From a virus (taxonomy: Duplodnaviria > Heunggongvirae > Uroviricota > Caudoviricetes), in the IMG/VR virus record IMGVR_UViG_2529293069_000032: DNA of 39,738 nt; one strand, written 5' to 3'. Both the position numbers and the translations under genes were made by a program. A model generated the notes under the pieces. That model searched no databases. It saw only the letters and a program-made list of their open reading frames with translations, and was not told where the DNA came from. How positions within the stretch are numbered: position 1 is the first letter of the stretch; every line of letters begins with the position of its first letter. This document shows, one piece after another, positions 5,903 to 28,684 of this stretch.

Positions 5903-6268
5903 ATGATTCTCGCCAACGACTTTCTTGAATACCTGCTCAACACAGAACGTGATCTTGCCGCTCGCGTGCGTGATCGTTATGACATGTACCTGAAATCCCT
6001 GCCTGTACCGCAGCTCGCTGACGGAAAGATTGTTATTGATGGTCGCTACATGATTGACAGCCACGAGGGAAATTACAGGCTTTACCGCATTGAAGGTGGC
6101 ACCCCGTCCGTTATTGGCATTTACCAGCGCCCATCCTCTGCAATCGTCGATGAGATTGCCGACAGCATCCGCATCACACATCGCCATGCCGACACAGAAG
6201 ACACCGTGCTGGAAATTCAGCGGCTGGCTACAGCCTGCCGCGACACCCTGAATGGCATGACGAAGTAA
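5903..6268 (+). CDS. Hypothetical protein immediately upstream of gene A
   Basis: 121 aa ORF, high-GC phage-core composition. Confidence 0.55.
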   Translation: MILANDFLEYLLNTERDLAARVRDRYDMYLKSLPVPQLADGKIVIDGRYMIDSHEGNYRLYRIEGGTPSVIGIYQRPSSAIVDEIADSIRITHRHADTEDTVLEIQRLATACRDTLNGMTK

Positions 6269-6274
6269 ATCACT

Positions 6275-9097
6275 ATGACGGCAGAGTACATCAGGGACTG
6301 GCAACAACCGCGCCACGCAGTGGGGCGTGAAGGAACGGGGATCCCCGCTCCTGAATCCGCGCTTTCCTCCTGGCTGGATGCCTACCGGGTAGAGAACGAG
6401 CGCCGCCAGGAAATGGCTGATGCGGCGTTCTCCGCAACGCCGCTGGGCAACCTGATTAATAAAAGCCTGGACGCACAGGAAAAACAGGACAAAACCATCA
6501 CACTGGCAGGAGACGCCAGAAAACAGGCACGCGGTGCGGTGGATGAAGCCATGGCCTCGCTGCGCCTGCTGCCGTCCTATCTGCGCGATCCGCTTATTCG
6601 CCACCTCTCCTTCCTGCGCAAAAAACAGGAAGCCGATCGTCAGAAAGGCAAAAAGAGCTGGCAGGCTGAACGCTACGCGCGCGGAAACCTGCGCAAAATA
6701 TTCGAACGTCTGGAGCGCACCGATCACCGCTGGCTGACACAGGGTTATCGCTCCCTTGCCGGACGCGAACGCCTGGACGATTTGCTTTACCTGCCGCAGC
6801 TCAACAAACACCAGATACAGACGCTGGCCACCATGACGGCGGCGATGTTCAGCAGCACCTTCGAAAAACTCTGCGATGGCTTTGGCGCGACCGATGGCGA
6901 ACTGACCATGGATGTAACGCTGAAGGCGTATCAGATGCTGGCCCGCATGGCGTTACACCTGCACGCCATGCCTCCACATTATGACGCACTGACAACAGAC
7001 AAAGACCGGAGGAACGAACCGGACACGGAGCTGCTGCCGGGCGCAATCCTTCGCCTGACCTGTGCGGAATGGTGGAAACGCAAACTGTGGCTGTTACGTT
7101 GCGAGTGGAGAGAAGAACAACTCCGCGCCGCCTGTCTGGTTTCCAGAAAAACATCGCCCTATCTGAGCCAGGACGCGTTAAGCGAGTTTCGCGCACAGCG
7201 CGAGAAAACACGCGATTTCCTGAAAAGTTTCATGCTGGAAAACGAAGACGGGTTCACGATTGATCTCGAGACAGTGTATTACGCGGGAGTAAGTAACCCG
7301 GTTCACCGTAAGGCAGAAATGATGGCCACCATGAAGGGGCTGGAACTTCTGGCCGAAGCCCGTGGCGACAAAGCGGTGTTTCTGACTGTCACCTGCCCGT
7401 CAAAATACCACGCTACAACAGAGAACGGTCATCCGAATCCCAAATGGAACGGGGCCACCATGCGCGACTCCAGCGATTACCTGGTTAACACGTTTTTTGC
7501 GGCGGTCCGCAAGAAACTGAACCGCGACGGCCTGCGCTGGTATGGCATCCGCACGGTGGAGCCTCACCATGACGGCACCGTGCACTGGCATATGATGGTC
7601 TTTGCTCATCCGGAAGAAATCGACACCATTGTGTCCCACACCCGCGATATTGCCATTCAGGAAGATCGTCACGAGCTGGGCGATGATATTACTCCGCGCT
7701 TTAAGGCGGAGTATGTCGACGGCTCAAAAGGCACGCCAACCAGCTACATCGCCACCTACATCGGAAAAAACCTGGACAGCCGCGCCGTGGATGGCATCGA
7801 CCCGAAAACAGGCAAACCACGCGTTGACCACGAAACCGGAAAATCAATGACCGAGAGCGTGGAACGCGCCATTGGCTGGGCGCGCCTTCACCGGGTCCGC
7901 CAGTTCCAGTTCTTTGGCATCCCCTCCCGTCAGGTGTGGCGTGAACTGCGTCGCCTTGCCAGCCAGATGGCACGCAACCCGGAAGGCCCGCAACGGCTGA
8001 AGGATGACGCAATGGATGCGGTTCTTGCTGCCGCTGATGCCGGATGTTTTGCCACCTACATTGAGAAACAGGGAGGCGTACTTGTTCCACGCAAGGACTA
8101 CCTGATTCGCACCGCCTACGACCTCGCAGATGAGCTGAACGATTACGGCGAACAGAGCGTACAGATTTACGGGATCTGGTCACCACTCATCGGGGAATCC
8201 TCCCGTGTGTGCACGCACCCGGATAACTGGAAGCTGGTAAGACGTAAACCGGGAGTAGAAGACAGCGCCCGCGAAAATGGTTTTGACCTTCAGGGCGGCC
8301 CTGCCGCCCCTTGGACTCGTGGCAATAACTGTCCCCGTGTACAGGAAACGGACAACAACGGGACAGAACAGCCGGAAGAACGGCCAGCACCGTGGCCGCA
8401 GCTTCCTGACGGCGTTGACGTGAACGAATGGATGCGCTCACTGAAACGGCACGAACGCCGGGCGCTGATGCGTTCGCTTCGTGACAAACAGGCAAAAAAC
8501 AGCAGTGATGAAATGCAGAGCTGGACACAGAGCCGCAAACAGCAGCGGCCTTTGCCTGATAACCACGAATTACTCGCTAAAGAATGGCGGGAGTCTGCTG
8601 AATCTCTCGGCCTGCATATCGGTGAACAACAGATGCAGCACCTGTTACGGGGCGGCAGTCTGTACGTTGACGGCAGCATCATTGCACCGCAGGGATTTGA
8701 AATTGTACGCAAACCGGATACCCGCCCGGACAGCCGAATCACGCAGCTCTGGCAGCGCCTGAGCCGTAATCATGGCGTAAGCAGCACGGAGATCCGCCAT
8801 AACCCGGTCGCCAGCTATCTGGCACAGCTGGGGGCATCAGACCCTGAAGCCGCCGCACGCCTGGCATCCACACTTCAGCAGGACCAGAACACCATGAAAA
8901 CACCCGTTACCGTGCTTTCTGACATGCTGCGCGCCATCCGCGACGCAGAGCACGCACAGAGAATCAGTGAAACCACTGAACGCGCCAGCCGCAAAGCAGA
9001 CCTGCTGCGGGGTGGCCTGACCAGTGGAAACAAAAAACAGACAGAAACGGGACTCACAAATCCCGTAAATGAGCAAAAAACGCGCCGCGATATATGA
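6275..9097 (+). CDS. A: Rolling-circle replication initiation endonuclease (P2 gpA family), with long C-terminal extension
   Basis: 940 aa; HUH-type motif TVHWHMMVF and surrounding GPA-family pattern; canonical P2 A is about 760 aa, so about 180 aa of Q/R-rich C-terminal extension. Confidence 0.85.
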   Translation: MTAEYIRDWQQPRHAVGREGTGIPAPESALSSWLDAYRVENERRQEMADAAFSATPLGNLINKSLDAQEKQDKTITLAGDARKQARGAVDEAMASLRLLPSYLRDPLIRHLSFLRKKQEADRQKGKKSWQAERYARGNLRKIFERLERTDHRWLTQGYRSLAGRERLDDLLYLPQLNKHQIQTLATMTAAMFSSTFEKLCDGFGATDGELTMDVTLKAYQMLARMALHLHAMPPHYDALTTDKDRRNEPDTELLPGAILRLTCAEWWKRKLWLLRCEWREEQLRAACLVSRKTSPYLSQDALSEFRAQREKTRDFLKSFMLENEDGFTIDLETVYYAGVSNPVHRKAEMMATMKGLELLAEARGDKAVFLTVTCPSKYHATTENGHPNPKWNGATMRDSSDYLVNTFFAAVRKKLNRDGLRWYGIRTVEPHHDGTVHWHMMVFAHPEEIDTIVSHTRDIAIQEDRHELGDDITPRFKAEYVDGSKGTPTSYIATYIGKNLDSRAVDGIDPKTGKPRVDHETGKSMTESVERAIGWARLHRVRQFQFFGIPSRQVWRELRRLASQMARNPEGPQRLKDDAMDAVLAAADAGCFATYIEKQGGVLVPRKDYLIRTAYDLADELNDYGEQSVQIYGIWSPLIGESSRVCTHPDNWKLVRRKPGVEDSARENGFDLQGGPAAPWTRGNNCPRVQETDNNGTEQPEERPAPWPQLPDGVDVNEWMRSLKRHERRALMRSLRDKQAKNSSDEMQSWTQSRKQQRPLPDNHELLAKEWRESAESLGLHIGEQQMQHLLRGGSLYVDGSIIAPQGFEIVRKPDTRPDSRITQLWQRLSRNHGVSSTEIRHNPVASYLAQLGASDPEAAARLASTLQQDQNTMKTPVTVLSDMLRAIRDAEHAQRISETTERASRKADLLRGGLTSGNKKQTETGLTNPVNEQKTRRDI

Positions 9098-23771: not shown

Positions 23772-25931
23772 ATGAGTACCACAACACGAAAATTTAAAAC
23801 CATTATCACTGATACTGGTGCCAAAAAATTAGCTCAGGCAGCCGCGCCAGATGGTAATCCTGTCCGCCTGACTCACATGGCCGTGGGCGACGGTGGCGGC
23901 ACGTTGCCCACACCAGACAGTAAGCAGACCCGTCTGGTGCATGAGGTGTGGCGACATACTGTTAATCGCGTCATCCTGGACGCAACACATCAGAACCGCA
24001 TTATTGCGGAGCTGGTTATTCCTCCTGAAACGGGCGGATTCTGGATCCGGGAAATTGGTGTATTTGATGAGCACGGCGATTTGATCGCGGTGGGCAATAC
24101 TGCCGAAAGTTACAAACCAACCGTTGCCGAAGGATCCGGACGTGCACAAACATTTCGCACCATTCTGACCGTATCCAGCACTGCCACCGTGGCGCTTACC
24201 GTGGATAACACCATGGTTATGGCCACAGTGGATTACGTGAATGACAAACTGAAAGAACATGAACAGTCACGACGTCACCCGGACGCCTCGCTGACCGCAA
24301 AAGGCTTTGTTCAACTCAGTAGCGCCACCAACAGCACGTCTGAAGCACTGGCCGCAACGCCGAAAGCGGTCAAGGCAGCCTATGACCTTGCTATCGGGAA
24401 ATATACCGCACAGGACGCCACTACAGCGCGGAAAGGACTTGTCCAGCTCAGTAGCGCCACCAACAGCGATTCAGAAACGCTGGCGGCAACACCAAAGGCG
24501 GTAAAGGCAACATATGACCTTGCTAACGGGAAATATACTGCGCAGGATGCCACCACAGCGCGGAAAGGCCTTGTCCAGCTCAGTAGCGCCACCAACAGCA
24601 CGTCTGAAGCACTGGCCGCAACACCGAAAGCGGTAAAGACAGCATATGACCTTGCTAACGGGAAATATACCGCTCAGGACGCTACGACAGCACAAAAAGG
24701 GATTGTCCAGCTAAGCAGCGCGACTAACAGCGCATCTGAAACGCTTGCTGCGACATCGAAAGCAGTGAAAGCAGCTAATGACAATGCGAATGGTCGGGTA
24801 CCTTCTGCCCGTAAGGTGAATGGTAAGGCGCTTTCAGCGGATATAACACTGACACCGAAAGATATTGGTACGCTTAACTCAACAACTATGTCATTCAGCG
24901 GTGGTGCTGGTTGGTTCAAATTAGCAACGGTAACCATGCCGCAGGCGAGTTCTGTTGTTTCAATTACGTTGATTGGTGGGGCTGGATATAACGTCGGTTC
25001 ACCTCAACAGGCAGGTATATCTGAACTTGTTTTGCGTGCAGGTAATGGTAATCCGAAGGGGATTACTGGTGCTTTATGGCAGCGCACATCGGCAGGGTTT
25101 ACAAATTTTGCCTGGGTCAATACATCTGGTGATACTTACGATATTTACGTTGCAATCGGAAATTATGCGACTGGTGTAAATATTCAATGGGATTATACCA
25201 GTAACGCCAGCGTAACGATTCATACTTCACCAGCATATTCTGCTAATAAGCCGGAAGGATTAACGGACGGTTCTGTTTATTCGCTGTATATTTCGCCTCA
25301 TGAACTTTATCCGGTTGGCGCACCGATCCCTTGGCCATCAGATACCGTTCCGTCTGGTTATGCCCTGATGCAGGGGCAGACTTTTGACAAATCTGCATAC
25401 CCGAAACTTGCAGCCGCTTATCCGTCAGGCGTGATCCCTGATATGCGTGGCTGGACGATTAAGGGCAAGCCCGCCAGTGGTCGTGCCGTATTGTCTCAGG
25501 AACAGGACGGCATTAAATCGCACACCCACAGCGCCAGCGTATCCAGTACGGATTTGGGTACGAAAACCACATCGTCGTTTGATTACGGGACGAAAACAAC
25601 CTCACTATTTGACTATGGGACCAAAACTACCAGTAACGCCGGGAGTCACACGCATTCAATACCAACATCAGATGGTGCAAACCAGGGGGGGAAAATTCCA
25701 CTGACATCTGGGCGTCTGGCAACTCAATATACATCAGCAACAACAGGTTCCTCTGGCTCACATTCTCATACTGTAGGTATTGGTTCTCATCAGCACACTG
25801 TCGGTATTGGTGCACACACGCACTCGGTTGCGATTGGCTCACATGGACACACCATCACCGTTAACGCTGCTGGTAACGCGGAAAACACCGTCAAAAACAT
25901 CGCATTTAACTATATTGTGAGGCTTGCATGA
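23772..25931 (+). CDS. H: Tail fibre protein H
   Basis: 719 aa; conserved N-terminal baseplate-attachment region, internal tandem repeats, C-terminal His-box tip ([32 protein letters not shown]). Confidence 0.85.
24300..24790 (+). repeat. About 3.7 tandem copies of a 132-bp (44-aa) repeat inside gene H
   Basis: Units start at 24300, 24432, 24564, 24696 (K-G-[FLI]-VQLSSATNS...TAQDATTA[RQ]); nearly identical at DNA level. Confidence 0.85.
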
Positions 25932-26830
25932 TTACGCTCATTCTTTCTGCACCAGTAACAGAAATGGCTGAAGCATTTAAGCGGGTATTTGCAAACGCAG
26001 ATAATGTGAATATTGTCGGAAAGCCATTTGAAACAATCAGAGAATTTGACTGTATGGTAAGTGCGGCAAATAGTTTCGGCCTGATGGATGGCGGTGTTGA
26101 TGCCGCCATTACCGCATTCTTCGGTACTCAGTTACAGTCCCGCGTTCAGAATCATATTCTTCGTGAATATCTAGGCGAGCAGCCTGTAGGATCTGCGTTT
26201 GTTATTGAAACGGGGCATAATCATCACCCCTGGCTGGTACATGCGCCAACAATGCGTGTTCCGCTGACAATTGACGGAACAGACGCTGTATATAACGCAA
26301 CCTGGGCCGCTCTGCTTGCCATCTTTCAGCACAATAAAAACGCAACGACAGACAGGAAAATAAAGACGGTGGTATTCCCTGCGATGGGGGCTGGATGTGG
26401 TCAGGTACCGTTTGAAAGTGTTGCCCGCCAGATGAAGCAGGCCTGGGATAACTTTAATAAAAAAACAGAATCAATTAACTGGGAATACGCACAATCCCGC
26501 CAGTCGGCAGTATTTGGCACATATGCATACTGTCCGGGTAATTCTGTTTGCCGTTATGCGGATGCTAAATATATTGGATGCGGCGATTATCGGACGTATT
26601 GCTCACGTTCCGGGCAGGTCTGTATTAACCCTGAACATCAGGCTGATGATGTACTGATACAACATCAGGCTAATAACCGGTTTCGCCCTGATTCGCATAT
26701 ACACCGGATTAATCCAGAAAATCCCGTAGGTAATGTCACCTCTGGCGCACATAGCCACAGAAGTAGCATCGTTATTGGTGCTCACACCCATACGCTCAAT
26801 AAACAATATTCTGTCTCTGATATTAAGTAG
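25928..26830 (+). CDS. Macro-domain protein with Cys-rich, tail-fibre-like His-box C-terminus, coupled to H
   Basis: 300 aa; ATGA overlap with H stop; macro signature [18 protein letters not shown] plus [12 protein letters not shown]-terminus [18 protein letters not shown] resembles H tip His-boxes. Confidence 0.7.
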
Positions 26831-26832
26831 AG

Positions 26833-27417
26833 GTGAACATGGATTTCAGAATGAGTGAACAACCACGGACCATAAAAATTTATAATCTGCTGGCCGGAAC
26901 TAATGAATTTATTGGTGAAGGTGACGCATACATTCCGCCTCATACAGGTCTGCCAGCAAACAGTACCGATATTGCACCGCCAGATATTCCGGCTGGCTTC
27001 GTGGCTGTTTTCAACAGTAATGAGGCATCGTGGCATCTCGTTGAAGATCATCGGGGTAAAACGGTTTATGACGTGGCTTCCGGCGACGCGTTATTTATTT
27101 CTGAACTCGGTCCGTTACCGGAAAATGTTACCTGGTTGTCGCCGGATGGAGAGTGTCAGAAGTGGAACGGCACATCCTGGGCGAAAGATGCAGAAGCAGA
27201 AAAACTGTTTCGGGTACGGGAGGCAGAAGAAACAAAAAACAGCCTGATGCAGGTAGCCAGTGAGCATATTGCGCCACTTCAGGATGCCGTAGATTTGGAT
27301 ATTGCGACGGAGGAAGAGGCATCGTTACTGGCTGCATGGAAGACATATCGGGTATTGTTGAATCGTGTTGATACAACAGTAGCAGCGGATGTTGAGTGGC
27401 CAGTCGCCCCACAATAA
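26833..27417 (+). CDS. G: Tail fibre assembly chaperone (gpG/Tfa-like)
   Basis: 194 aa; conserved Tfa N-terminus ([37 protein letters not shown]). Confidence 0.8.
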
Positions 27418-27425
27418 AAAGAAAA

Positions 27426-27451
27426 AGCCATCGACAGAAATATCGATGGCT
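27426..27451. terminator. Bidirectional terminator between convergent G and acetyltransferase
   Basis: AGCCATCGA-loop-TCGATGGCT hairpin flanked by A-run (5') and T-run (3'). Confidence 0.55.
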
Positions 27452-27460
27452 TTATGTACT

Positions 27461-28033
27461 CTATTTATACAATACAACACCACTCTTTTTAGTTATATAT
27501 GTGCAGTTTGATGGTATATCTTTATTTATAAAAGACATTGCACCTATTTTTACATTATCCCCAATTTTACGTGATAATCCAATGATGCAACAATTAGCTC
27601 CGATATCAACGTTACTACCAATTTTTACTCTTGAACTAGGCATATCACCATCTATCTGTCCAATGGTAGTATTCTGTCGTAATACCAGATTTTCACCCGC
27701 ATCAACAGCAAAATGAACAACAATTCCAGCATGATGGGGAATTGTCAACCCTTTTCCAATATTTGCGCCCAATCCTATTTCACAACCAAACTTGTTAATT
27801 ATTTTACTGTTTAACTTTTTGGCTGCTTTCTTATGTAATTTATTACCATTAATATACATTTCGTTAGCCAACCGCCACCAGAAAAGGAAATTCCGGTTAC
27901 GCTGCTTTTTCTCTCTTAAAAGCCTCCAGATATCCATACGTTTCCGCCGAATTACTTCATGTTTCCAGAAGTTTTTTAAATTAGTAGAGTTTCCAAATAA
28001 AACAAAGTGAATTGCCATTAAGTAAGATAGCAC
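27461..28033 (-). CDS. Hexapeptide-repeat (LbH) acetyltransferase, CysE/WcaB-like; cargo in the P2 Z/fun position
   Basis: Track ORF to 28066; probable GTG start at 28031-28033 after TAAGGAG SD; TATAAT at about 28085; repeats IGLGANIGKG ... VKIGSNVDIGANCCIIG ... IGDNVKIGAMS; AT-rich. Confidence 0.75.
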   Translation of the reverse strand: MLSYLMAIHFVLFGNSTNLKNFWKHEVIRRKRMDIWRLLREKKQRNRNFLFWWRLANEMYINGNKLHKKAAKKLNSKIINKFGCEIGLGANIGKGLTIPHHAGIVVHFAVDAGENLVLRQNTTIGQIDGDMPSSRVKIGSNVDIGANCCIIGLSRKIGDNVKIGAMSFINKDIPSNCTYITKKSGVVLYK

Positions 28034-28189
28034 GATAATCTCCTTAATTATTATTTCAGACCACACATGTTATAAGGTTAAGAGATTATAAAATCCTGTT
28101 ATTTGTTATTCAAAAACAATTTTCTGAGAAGGACATACAACAGCAAGTCGCCAGTCACCTTCATCAGGAAATTGGCGACATACGTTAAA

Positions 28190-28684
28190 TCAGAGCAGCC
28201 CCTTAACTGAGCTGGCCGCGCTATTAAGGGATGATGTCACCTTATCTTTGAAGCCGGACAGCATATCGCTGAACGATGAGGATTGCAGGCGCTCCCGCAA
28301 ATCCTCATCACAGCGTTCAAGAGTCAGTGAAAATTCTATCTTTTTCGCCTTACCGTAGCGATCAAACTCGGAGCGGGTCGTATTCGTTCCGGTCAGGACA
28401 TACATGCCGTAAATCTGCCCGACGCCATCAATCAAAGGCCAAGGACGTCCTGTATATGCCTGCGTGGTCAACAACGACAGCGACACTTCGCCACCAGTAA
28501 TCTCAGGATAAAGAACACCAGAAAGAACGATGCGATCATCACCTGCACCGATATACTGCCAGCTTGCTGAACGGTTAACGCGTTCATTTTTCACATGTCG
28601 CCAGCTTTTGTTTTGCTGTAACTGCTGATGCGGCAACGTGCGCAGCTCAAAAACAAACATGCCGTAGATCATCATCATGGCCAT
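28190..28684 (-). CDS. U: Tail protein U
   Basis: 164 aa (P2 U about 159 aa); directly downstream of tape measure on the same strand. Confidence 0.8.
   Translation of the reverse strand: MAMMMIYGMFVFELRTLPHQQLQQNKSWRHVKNERVNRSASWQYIGAGDDRIVLSGVLYPEITGGEVSLSLLTTQAYTGRPWPLIDGVGQIYGMYVLTGTNTTRSEFDRYGKAKKIEFSLTLERCDEDLRERLQSSSFSDMLSGFKDKVTSSLNSAASSVKGLL

What the first reader, a model, noticed from the sequence alone, without database searches (positions are those of the whole stretch)
27461..28033. Hexapeptide acetyltransferase with its own strong expression signals in the Z/fun slot
The G-to-FI junction (P2 Z/fun, a known cargo site) holds an AT-rich CysE/WcaB-like acetyltransferase with a near-consensus TATAAT and TAAGGAG SD and a bidirectional terminator downstream. 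Prophage acetyltransferases often modify surface polysaccharide (lysogenic conversion, receptor masking); it might instead acetylate a small molecule.
Basis: partly seen in the sequence, partly recalled or inferred. Interest (0 to 1): 0.4.

Follow-up and report, generated by a model that had tools for sequence, protein, structure and literature searches.

The report
Prophage cargo acetyltransferase beside tail fibre genes
This is a small stand-alone acetyltransferase gene carried by a defective P2-type prophage of E. coli O157:H7; databases call it a serine acetyltransferase, but it lacks the serine-binding features, and its relatives sit next to phage tail fibre genes and lipopolysaccharide-core genes, so it most likely acetylates the cell-surface receptor sugar.

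Summary
The gene is real. It is a 190-aa ORF on the minus strand (28033->27461) with a GTG start, a TAAGGAG ribosome-binding site, a TTGAAT-17-TATAAT promoter, a strong hairpin terminator, and about 35% GC against 50-57% in the flanks.

The slot is misnamed. This is a P88-like (Xuanwuvirus) prophage, and the gene lies between the tail fibre assembly gene (tfa) and gpU, not between G and FI. In P88 that junction holds the invertible fibre segment and its invertase.

The protein is a short serine-acetyltransferase-fold enzyme: five N-terminal helices plus a left-handed beta-helix. It keeps the catalytic His/acid pair but lacks the CysE N-terminal domain and the serine-binding residues. It fails the NCBIfam cut-offs for CysE, WcaB and EpsC. 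It belongs to an uncharacterised family (phrog_2154).

In 12 of 23 diverged phage clusters a family member lies convergent to tfa within 80 bp. Relatives are also co-located with WaaZ, a waa core cluster, and GT25, GT9 and HtrL genes.

Best reading (about 0.55): a lysogenic-conversion O-acetyltransferase acting on an envelope glycan, probably the LPS core. The substrate is inferred, not shown. It is a new member of a known kind and of moderate interest.

The parts
27461..28033 (-). Acetyltransferase CDS (190 aa, GTG start, TAG stop). Five N-terminal helices (residues 2-82) are followed by a left-handed beta-helix. It is a member of phrog_2154.
   Evidence: ORF list and sequence; PGAP CDS in identical O157:H7 DNA; phrog_2154 at 2.9e-87; AF2 model with pLDDT 91; family alignments A1 and A3.
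28040..28046 (-). Shine-Dalgarno sequence TAAGGAG, 6 nt upstream of the GTG start.
   Evidence: Read directly from the sequence. It is identical in the L003/L006 prophages, whose acetyltransferase protein is only 71% identical.
28085..28113 (-). Sigma-70-type promoter candidate: -35 TTGAAT (28113-28108), 17-bp spacer, -10 TATAAT (28090-28085).
   Evidence: Consensus scan, 10 of 12 positions. It lies in a 92-nt block (28034-28125) that is 96% conserved against an allele whose coding sequence is 70% identical. Activity was not tested.
27424..27453 (.). Intrinsic terminator hairpin (13-bp stem, 4-nt loop) between the convergent acetyltransferase and tfa genes. The strong T-run is on the acetyltransferase strand.
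   Evidence: Terminator scan; RNA fold dG -21.8 kcal/mol, z = -4.06; 100% conserved in L006.
26833..27417 (+). Tail fibre assembly gene (tfa; P2 G / lambda Tfa type). It is the conserved convergent neighbour of the acetyltransferase.
   Evidence: Pfam Caudo_TAP at 6.9e-40. The tfa + acetyltransferase block is 91.6% identical at the nucleotide level to P1-like phages JL22 and Ro157c2YLVW. A convergent tfa lies within 80 bp in 12 of 23 acetyltransferase clusters.
24863..25931 (+). C-terminal (distal, receptor-side) part of tail fibre H. It moves with tfa and the acetyltransferase as one module.
   Evidence: 80-86% nucleotide identity to the fibre 3' end of JL22 and Ro157c2YLVW, directly followed there by tfa and the acetyltransferase. 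The N-terminal part instead matches P88.

Best explanation
The gene is a prophage cargo gene (a 'moron') with its own promoter and terminator.

It encodes a soluble, cytoplasmic, acetyl-CoA-dependent O-acetyltransferase with the serine-acetyltransferase/WcaB-type left-handed beta-helix fold. It is not a serine acetyltransferase.

Its most likely acceptor is an envelope glycan assembled at the cytoplasmic face of the inner membrane. The lipopolysaccharide core oligosaccharide is the leading candidate. O-acetylation would change the surface sugar that LPS-binding tail fibres recognise. That would be a lysogenic conversion giving exclusion of, or reduced adsorption by, phages with related fibres.

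Shown here: the gene anatomy, the fold, retention of the catalytic His/acid pair, loss of the SAT-specific features, linkage to the tail fibre module, and recurrent linkage of family members to LPS-core genes.

Inferred only: the acceptor, expression in the lysogen, and the phage-exclusion phenotype.
For: (1) Anatomy of a self-contained cargo gene:
- The gene runs opposite to the late fibre operon.
- It has about 35% GC against 50-57% in the flanks.
- It has a promoter and SD, and a hairpin terminator.
- These signals are 96-100% conserved while the ORF interior has diverged to 49-72% nucleotide identity in another allele.

(2) Enzyme:
- The AF2 model has pLDDT 91 and shows a helical cap plus LbH.
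- Its best solved neighbours are SATs, with Foldseek probability 1.0 and TMq 0.55-0.70.
- The catalytic His (H100, aligned with CysE H158) is at least 90% conserved, and the acid partner (E85, aligned with D143) is kept.
- The family profile is closer to WcaB, which acts in colanic-acid biosynthesis (annotation), than to CysE. Against WcaB it gives 36% identity and E 9e-24; against CysE it gives 27% and E 6e-18.
- The family HMM scores members at 183-295 bits, against 98 for WcaB and 74 for CysE.

(3) Link to the receptor-binding module:
- The block fibre tip + tfa + acetyltransferase is shared at 80-92% nucleotide identity between this P2-type prophage and P1-like plasmid prophages.
- In 12 of 23 acetyltransferase clusters (36-96% identity to this protein) a convergent tfa lies within 80 bp.
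- Other clusters sit next to a P22-type tailspike or a fibre chaperone.

(4) Link to LPS core:
- In Leminorella the family member is the last gene of the waa cluster: GT4 - WaaP - GT4 - GT8 - WaaY - WaaZ - acetyltransferase, facing the O-antigen ligase gene.
- In Halomonas WaaZ is again immediately upstream.
- In a Pseudomonas it follows a GT2 gene, near a WaaP-family kinase and Wbp-type genes.
- In Xenorhabdus, Morganella and two viral contigs the phage cargo is acetyltransferase + GT25, acetyltransferase + GT9 (heptosyltransferase family), or acetyltransferase + HtrL/YibB.

(5) Receptor and precedent:
- Phage phiNP carries a 44%-identical member next to tfa. Phage phiSM is P88-like. Both use the LPS core as receptor (PMC6456863).
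- Prophage-borne NeuO acetylates the K1 capsule and protects against K1 phages (PMC9659370).

(6) Distribution: the same allele (at least 90% nucleotide identity) is in 530 of 5426 complete E. coli genomes. They include O157, O55, O84, O26, O111 and O45, which argues against a target specific to one O-antigen.
Against: - There is no biochemical or genetic evidence for this family in the searchable literature. The one paper that discusses the gene says its role is unknown (PMC9603915).
- The evidence for the acceptor is guilt by association.
- Many family members are isolated genes among unrelated housekeeping genes or on plasmids (EAF plasmid, a Pseudomonas plasmid), with no glycan genes nearby.
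- The space next to tfa is a general cargo hotspot. A methyltransferase and a macro-domain gene also sit there, so linkage alone could reflect where insertions are tolerated.
- I know of no LbH-type LPS-core O-acetyltransferase (own knowledge).
- Promoter-like matches are not enriched over chance in this region, and AT-rich foreign genes are often silenced.
- PADLOC has no match.
Confidence: 0.55

Rival explanations
1. Same enzyme class and same lysogenic-conversion logic, but the acceptor is another envelope glycan made on undecaprenyl phosphate or as a nucleotide sugar. Candidates are O-antigen units, colanic acid, enterobacterial common antigen or a capsule, rather than the LPS core.
For: - The closest characterised E. 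coli relative by profile is WcaB, of colanic-acid biosynthesis.
- The best NCBIfam hit is the exopolysaccharide-system protein EpsC.
- The Pseudomonas locus borders Wbp-type O-antigen genes.
- The NeuO precedent is a capsule enzyme.
Against: - The allele occurs across at least six O serogroups.
- It fails the WcaB and EpsC cut-offs by a wide margin.
- No family member was seen inside a colanic-acid, ECA or capsule cluster.
- The recurrent partners are core-specific: WaaZ, WaaY, GT9, GT25, HtrL.
Confidence: 0.2
2. The enzyme acetylates a small molecule or a protein unrelated to the envelope, for example a xenobiotic, a sugar, a metabolite or a phage/defence factor. Its position next to tfa only reflects a permissive insertion site.
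For: - LbH enzymes include sugar and xenobiotic acetyltransferases, and weak hits to LacA and Maa were seen.
- Many members stand alone, with no glycan genes nearby, including on plasmids.
- Other unrelated cargo occupies the same hotspot.
Against: - LacA, Maa and XAT-type models score far lower than the SAT/WcaB side.
- PADLOC gives no defence match.
- Independent co-location with five different LPS-core gene families in five lineages is hard to get by chance.
Confidence: 0.15
3. It is what the databases call it: a serine O-acetyltransferase that boosts cysteine synthesis for the phage or host.
For: - PGAP and GenBank name it so.
- The nearest solved structures are SATs.
- The catalytic His/acid pair is conserved.
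Against: - It scores 62 bits against the 210.65-bit cut-off of TIGR01172, and 36.6 against 397 for NF008349.
- It aligns only to CysE residues 113-236. The N-terminal region of about 110 residues is replaced by a shorter helical cap, and there is no SATase_N Pfam hit.
- The positions matching D157, R192 and H193 are P99, S134 and R135, and they vary within the family.
- The protein ends in ...VVLYK and has no CysK-binding C-terminal tail.
- It has never been found with cys genes.
Confidence: 0.03
4. It is a decaying passenger with no current function in a defective prophage.
For: The prophage is defective. IS30 splits gpD in the window, and a sister strain has a holin pseudogene and an IS-truncated tape measure gene.
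Against: - The ORF is intact and 100% identical in many O157:H7 genomes.
- It is at least 90% identical in 530 genomes, on chromosomes and plasmids.
- The catalytic motifs are conserved across 106 homologues.
- The expression signals are conserved.
Confidence: 0.05

Closest known systems
WcaB (E. coli colanic acid biosynthesis O-acetyltransferase)
   Same: - Both are small LbH enzymes with a short helical N-terminus instead of the full SAT N-domain.
- Both have an HH motif at the catalytic site.
- WcaB is the closest characterised E. coli protein by profile: 36% identity over 104 columns, E 9e-24.
- WcaB acts in the cytoplasm during colanic-acid repeat-unit assembly (annotation).
   Different: - This protein scores only 54-56 bits against WcaB cut-offs of 194-196.
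- The family HMM gives WcaB 98 bits, against 183-295 for members.
- It is not in a colanic-acid cluster.
- It has a longer N-terminal cap of five helices (82 residues).
- It is carried by phages and plasmids.
CysE serine O-acetyltransferase
   Same: - Both have the LbH fold and are presumably trimers.
- The catalytic His158/Asp143 equivalents are present.
- SATs are the nearest solved structures.
   Different: - It lacks the full N-terminal domain.
- It lacks the serine-binding residues and the C-terminal CysK-binding tail.
- It scores far below the equivalog cut-off.
NeuO of prophage CUS-3 (K1 polysialic acid O-acetyltransferase)
   Same: - NeuO is also a prophage-borne hexapeptide-family enzyme.
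- It acetylates a surface glycan from the cytoplasmic side.
- It changes phage susceptibility (PMC9659370).
- By my own knowledge, its gene also lies next to the receptor-binding (tailspike) gene.
   Different: - NeuO is phase-variable through heptanucleotide repeats. No tandem repeats are present here.
- It belongs to a different LbH subfamily.
- Its substrate is specific to K1, whereas this gene occurs in many serogroups without K1.
- No direct sequence comparison with NeuO was made.
Serotype-converting O-acetyltransferases of temperate phages (Oac of Sf6 and relatives)
   Same: The biological logic is the same: a lysogenic-conversion cargo gene that acetylates LPS and alters the receptor for the phage's own kind.
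   Different: Those enzymes are integral-membrane acyltransferase-3 proteins that act on O-antigen (own knowledge). This one is a soluble LbH enzyme, with no predicted membrane segment in a confident model.
P2 Z/fun cargo locus
   Same: It is a cargo site at the end of the tail fibre operon of a P2-type myovirus.
   Different: In P2 the site lies between G and FI. Here the junction is tfa to gpU, because the FI-U module is inverted. In the type phage P88 this junction carries the invertible fibre segment and a DNA invertase. No gix/cix-like site remains in the window.

Membership tests
CysE serine O-acetyltransferase (TIGR01172 / NF008349) | Score at or above the curated equivalog cut-off | tested here: not met
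   62.4 bits against a cut-off of 210.65; 36.6 against 397.
CysE serine O-acetyltransferase | Full N-terminal alpha-helical SAT domain (about 110-140 residues, Pfam SATase_N) | tested here: not met
   There is no SATase_N hit. The query aligns only to CysE residues 113-236. The model has a shorter cap of five helices over 82 residues.
CysE serine O-acetyltransferase | Catalytic His158 with Asp143 | tested here: met
   H100 is at least 90% conserved in 106 sequences. E85 aligns with D143, and the family consensus there is D/E.
CysE serine O-acetyltransferase | Serine/cysteine-binding residues Asp92, Asp157, Arg192, His193 (residue roles from my own knowledge of the SAT structures) | tested here: not met
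   D157 aligns with P99, R192 with S134 and H193 with R135. These columns vary within the family, and the D92 region cannot be aligned.
CysE serine O-acetyltransferase | C-terminal tail ending in Ile that binds CysK (own knowledge) | tested here: not met
   The protein ends ...KKSGVVLYK directly after the LbH. CysE extends a further 37 residues or so.
WcaB colanic acid acetyltransferase (NF007564 / TIGR04016) | Equivalog score, and a location in the wca cluster | tested here: not met
   55.8 bits against 196 and 54.4 against 194.65. The gene is in a prophage, not in the wca cluster.
EpsC (NF041874) | Equivalog score | tested here: not met
   76.2 bits against a cut-off of 150.
Hexapeptide-repeat (LbH) acyltransferase superfamily | Left-handed beta-helix built of hexapeptide repeats | tested here: met
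   Pfam Hexapep is just below its cut-off (24.4 against 27). However, hhalign gives probability 99% or more to CysE and WcaB. The AF2 model (pLDDT 91) matches SAT structures with Foldseek probability 1.0.
phrog_2154 (phage protein family of unknown function) | Full-length profile match | tested here: met
   E 2.9e-87, residues 13-190 against profile positions 3-181 of 185.
Prophage moron / lysogenic-conversion gene | Autonomous promoter and terminator, deviant base composition, and dispensability for the phage (absent from close relatives) | tested here: met
   Expression signals; GC 0.35; absent from P88, which has other genes in the slot.
Prophage moron / lysogenic-conversion gene | Expressed from the repressed prophage and changes a host phenotype | not testable with these tools
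   No transcript or phenotype data were found in the literature searches.
P2 Z/fun locus | Located between G and FI | tested here: not met
   The neighbours are tfa and gpU. The sheath gene lies at 32581-33765.
NeuO-type phase-variable capsule O-acetyltransferase | Heptanucleotide repeat tract in the 5' coding region | tested here: not met
   TRF finds no tandem repeat in 27300-28300.
Known anti-phage defence systems (PADLOC) | Match to a defence-protein model | tested here: not met
   0 families matched.

The most novel reading that the evidence does not exclude
The acetyltransferase is the founding example of a soluble, LbH-type LPS-core O-acetyltransferase. With the fibre tip and its chaperone it forms a portable cassette: 'receptor-binding tip + chaperone + receptor-masking enzyme'. 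Recombination exchanges this cassette among unrelated myoviruses, namely P2/P88-like, P1-like and phiNP-like phages. The diverged ORF interiors between conserved expression signals would then be specificity alleles matched to different core structures.
Probability: 0.3. Interest if true: 0.6.

Novelty: new member of a known kind. Interest (0 to 1): 0.38.

Why it matters
- The gene is in about 10% of complete E. coli genomes, including O157:H7, O26 and O111 STEC. It is uniformly annotated as a cysteine-biosynthesis enzyme, which is almost certainly wrong.
- If it acetylates the LPS core, it would be a widespread lysogenic-conversion factor of a biochemical type not yet described for the core: soluble and acetyl-CoA dependent.
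- Possible consequences are changed phage host range (relevant to phage therapy and typing of STEC), altered binding of anti-core antibodies, and different outer-membrane properties.
- It would also give a clean example of a receptor-binding module and a receptor-modifying enzyme moving together between phage families.

Tried and rejected
- Literature: nine full-text searches found no functional study. Terms included the protein accession, CP-933T, tail fibre assembly + acetyltransferase, P2 hotspots, LPS core + prophage, P1-like + invertible, and WaaZ + O-acetyl. The JL22 paper explicitly calls the gene's role unknown.
- PADLOC defence models: no hit.
- Search for a residual Gin/Cin/Hin crossover core (AAACCNNGGTTT, 1 mismatch): none in the window. 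There is therefore no evidence that the region still inverts.
- Tandem-repeat and phase-variation tract: none.
- Rfam scan of the region: nothing related to the acetyltransferase leader.
Only L027-L040 were close enough to use.
- tblastn of the window's tail proteins against those loci found no phage context there.
- Testing co-occurrence of the gene with the LPS core type (R3) across E. coli genomes was considered. It was not feasible, because the search tool returns counts and top rows but not intersections.
- The idea that the neighbouring macro-domain gene is a functional partner of the acetyltransferase was dropped. The macro gene is absent from the otherwise colinear JL22 module and from the other contexts.

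Full report
**Observation**

The finding's coordinates hold a real gene, but it is on the minus strand. The ORF runs from GTG at 28033-28031 to TAG at 27463-27461 and encodes 190 aa. NCBI's pipeline calls the same frame in identical O157:H7 DNA, and homologues start at the equivalent residue.

- TAAGGAG lies 6 nt upstream of the start, at 28046-28040.
- A TTGAAT-17 bp-TATAAT promoter match lies at 28113-28085.
- A 13-bp hairpin at 27424-27453 starts 7 nt after the stop codon. It is followed on the gene's strand by TTTTTCTTTTT. Its dG is -21.8 kcal/mol, z = -4.06, and 0 of 200 shuffles fold as well.
- GC content drops to 0.34-0.36, against 0.50-0.57 on both sides.

Promoter-like matches are not enriched in this AT-rich stretch (4 found, 3.5 expected). 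What speaks for the signals is conservation. In prophages carrying a 71%-identical allele, identity to the window varies sharply along the region:

| Segment | Nucleotide identity |
|---|---|
| 92-nt promoter/5'UTR block | 96% |
| Terminator | 100% |
| ORF interior | 49-72% |

**Where the gene sits**

The window is a P2-type prophage that is 100% identical over this region to many E. coli O157:H7 genomes. Its backbone is that of phage P88 (genus Xuanwuvirus).

In this group the FI-FII-E-T-U tail module is inverted and converges on the V-W-J-I-H-tfa module. The acetyltransferase therefore lies between tfa (26833-27417, Caudo_TAP at 6.9e-40) and gpU (28190-28684, Phage_P2_GpU at 1.5e-38). It does not lie between G and FI, so 'Z/fun slot' is not accurate.

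In P88 itself this junction holds tfa', an alternative fibre end and a DNA invertase, that is, an invertible fibre segment. The window has none of these and no gix/cix-like core site.

The prophage is defective. A complete IS30 (34197-35348) splits gpD.

**What the protein is**

- Pfam gives only sub-threshold hexapeptide hits.
- NCBIfam ranks EpsC (76 bits, cut-off 150), CysE (62, cut-off 211) and WcaB (55, cut-off 195). None reaches its cut-off.
- PHROGs places it full-length in phrog_2154, of unknown function (2.9e-87).
- PADLOC has nothing.
- PDB sequence search finds serine acetyltransferases, but only over their C-terminal beta-helix (query 54-180 against SAT residues about 130-260).
- An AlphaFold2 model built on 106 homologues is confident (pLDDT 91, pTM 0.87). 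It shows five N-terminal helices (residues 2-82) capping a left-handed beta-helix. Foldseek's best solved matches are all SATs, with TMq 0.55-0.70.
- Profile-profile comparison puts the family nearer to E. coli WcaB (36% identity, E 9e-24) than to CysE (27%, E 6e-18).
- A family HMM scores members at 183-295 bits, against 98 for WcaB, 74 for CysE and 27 for WcaF.

Mapped on CysE, the catalytic His158 is kept (H100, at least 90% conserved), and so is its acidic partner (E85 for D143). Asp157 is Pro. Arg192 and His193 fall in variable columns. The Asp92 region and the CysK-binding C-terminal tail are missing.

The database name 'serine O-acetyltransferase' is therefore a fold-level label, not a function.

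**Evidence from relatives: phage context**

The gene is common. At 90% nucleotide identity or more it is in 530 of 5426 complete E. coli genomes, covering O157:H7, O55:H7, O84:H7, O26, O111 and O45:H2. Sixty-six of the copies are on plasmids of about 95-100 kb.

Those plasmids are P1-like prophages. In JL22 and vB_EcoM-Ro157c2YLVW the gene sits in the centre of the invertible C-segment, between tfa and U'.

The window and these phages share one contiguous module: fibre C-terminal tip (80-86%) + tfa + acetyltransferase (91.6%). The similarity ends exactly at the acetyltransferase start codon. The macro-domain gene at 25928-26830 is an insertion relative to JL22.

The arrangement is much older than this module. 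A family member lies convergent to, and within a few tens of bases of, tfa in each of these phages:

- Citrobacter phage phiNP (44% identity)
- Hafnia phage yong2 (35%)
- E. coli phage 613R2 (36%)
- IMG/VR contigs at 45-67% identity

After clustering the phage and mobile-element copies at 90% identity, 12 of 23 clusters have a convergent tfa within 80 bp. Further clusters lie beside a P22-type tailspike or a fibre + DUF4376 chaperone. Others lie at prophage ends next to integrase or hok.

**Evidence from relatives: LPS core**

Where a family member has functional neighbours, they are lipopolysaccharide-core genes.

- In Leminorella grimontii it is the last gene of the waa cluster. The order is GT4, WaaP-family kinase, GT4, GT8, WaaY, WaaZ (TIGR04437 at 402 bits against a cut-off of 200), then the acetyltransferase, facing the O-antigen ligase gene.
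- In a Halomonas genome WaaZ (223 bits) is again immediately upstream.
- In a Pseudomonas it follows a GT2 gene, close to a WaaP-family kinase and Wbp-type genes.
- In Xenorhabdus bovienii prophages it forms a two-gene unit with a GT25 LPS glycosyltransferase, between the integrase and the tail fibre.
- In a Morganella prophage the unit is hicAB - acetyltransferase - GT9 (heptosyltransferase family).
- In two viral contigs an HtrL/YibB gene lies between the acetyltransferase and the fibre genes. By my own knowledge, HtrL/YibB is a family encoded beside the E. coli waa locus.

Independently, phiNP and the P88-like phiSM were shown to use the LPS core as receptor (PMC6456863).

Against this, a good number of members are isolated genes among unrelated neighbours or on plasmids, including the EPEC EAF plasmid downstream of bfp.

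**Mechanism proposed**

A soluble trimeric LbH enzyme uses acetyl-CoA in the cytoplasm. The only envelope glycans available there are lipid A-core during assembly, undecaprenyl-linked repeat units, and nucleotide sugars.

Three observations point to the LPS core:

- the recurrent partnership with WaaZ, WaaY, GT9, GT25 and HtrL;
- the presence of the allele across many O serogroups;
- the tight linkage to fibre/chaperone genes of phages that bind the core.

I therefore favour O-acetylation of an LPS core sugar as a lysogenic conversion that alters the receptor (about 0.55 for envelope-glycan acetylation as stated, with the core as the leading target). NeuO of prophage CUS-3 is the closest functional precedent. 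It is a hexapeptide-family capsule O-acetyltransferase that protects against K1 phages (PMC9659370).

Shown here: gene anatomy, fold, catalytic residues, non-membership in CysE/WcaB/EpsC, and the two kinds of genomic linkage. Inferred only: the acceptor, expression from the prophage, and the phage-exclusion phenotype.

**Rivals**

| Reading | Confidence | Main point |
|---|---|---|
| Another glycan acceptor | 0.2 | Same logic, different target |
| A non-envelope substrate, with hotspot-driven placement | 0.15 | Many members stand alone |
| True serine acetyltransferase | 0.03 | Fails every SAT-specific test |
| Functionless passenger | 0.05 | ORF, motifs and signals are conserved |

**Novelty and verdict**

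The gene is known and annotated but mislabelled. No functional study turned up, and the one paper that discusses it says its role is unknown (PMC9603915).

It is best filed as a new (uncharacterised) member of a known kind: prophage-borne surface-glycan O-acetyltransferase cargo. If the LPS-core target and the mobile 'fibre tip + chaperone + masking enzyme' cassette are confirmed, it would become a new variant of some interest. Interest overall is moderate, at 0.38.

Noticed in passing
window 25928-26830 (+): A 300-aa macro-domain protein (Pfam Macro 68 bits; phrog_2613) is wedged between tail fibre H and tfa. Its start overlaps the H stop, and it ends 2 nt before tfa. Its C-terminus carries an HxH motif like the fibre tip. 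It is absent from the otherwise colinear JL22 module. A macro (ADP-ribose-binding or deacetylase-type) domain inside a late fibre operon is unusual.
   Followed up: partly
window 33791-36255 (IS30 at 34197-35348, -): A complete IS30 (383-aa transposase) splits the tail gene gpD into fragments at 33791-34246 and 35512-36255, so the prophage is defective. A sister O157:H7 strain additionally has an IS1203 insertion that truncates the tape measure gene, and a holin pseudogene.
   Followed up: partly
window 27461-28125 compared with L006: The conservation is mosaic. The terminator is 100% identical, the last 70 nt or so of the ORF 96%, and the promoter/5'UTR 96%. The ORF interior is only 49-72% identical. 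This suggests exchangeable or diversifying acetyltransferase alleles between conserved expression signals.
   Followed up: partly
window 27182-27380 (+): Rfam family IS009 (RF02111) matches at 191 bits (gathering score 117) inside the 3' part of the tfa coding sequence. The model was probably built on conserved prophage tfa DNA rather than on an independent sRNA.
   Followed up: no
L020 (phage P88) 2267-4971 compared with window 27418-28189: In the type phage P88 the same tfa-gpU junction carries tfa', an alternative fibre end and a DNA invertase. The window has replaced all of this, and also the distal fibre part, with P1-like-related sequence. No crossover site remains.
   Followed up: yes
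L003, L004, L005, L007 at 6617-7605: Related prophages carry a truncated second tfa and a class-I SAM methyltransferase between tfa and the acetyltransferase allele. This is another cargo gene in the same hotspot.
   Followed up: no
L014-L019 (EPEC EAF-type plasmids) 6001-6594: A 50%-identical family member lies a few kb downstream of the bundle-forming pilus (bfp) genes on EAF plasmids, among IS remnants.
   Followed up: no
window 24300-24790 (+): Tail fibre H contains internal repeats of about 130 nt (peptide ...[35 protein letters not shown]...). They appear as self-matches and as shifted matches to P88.
   Followed up: no
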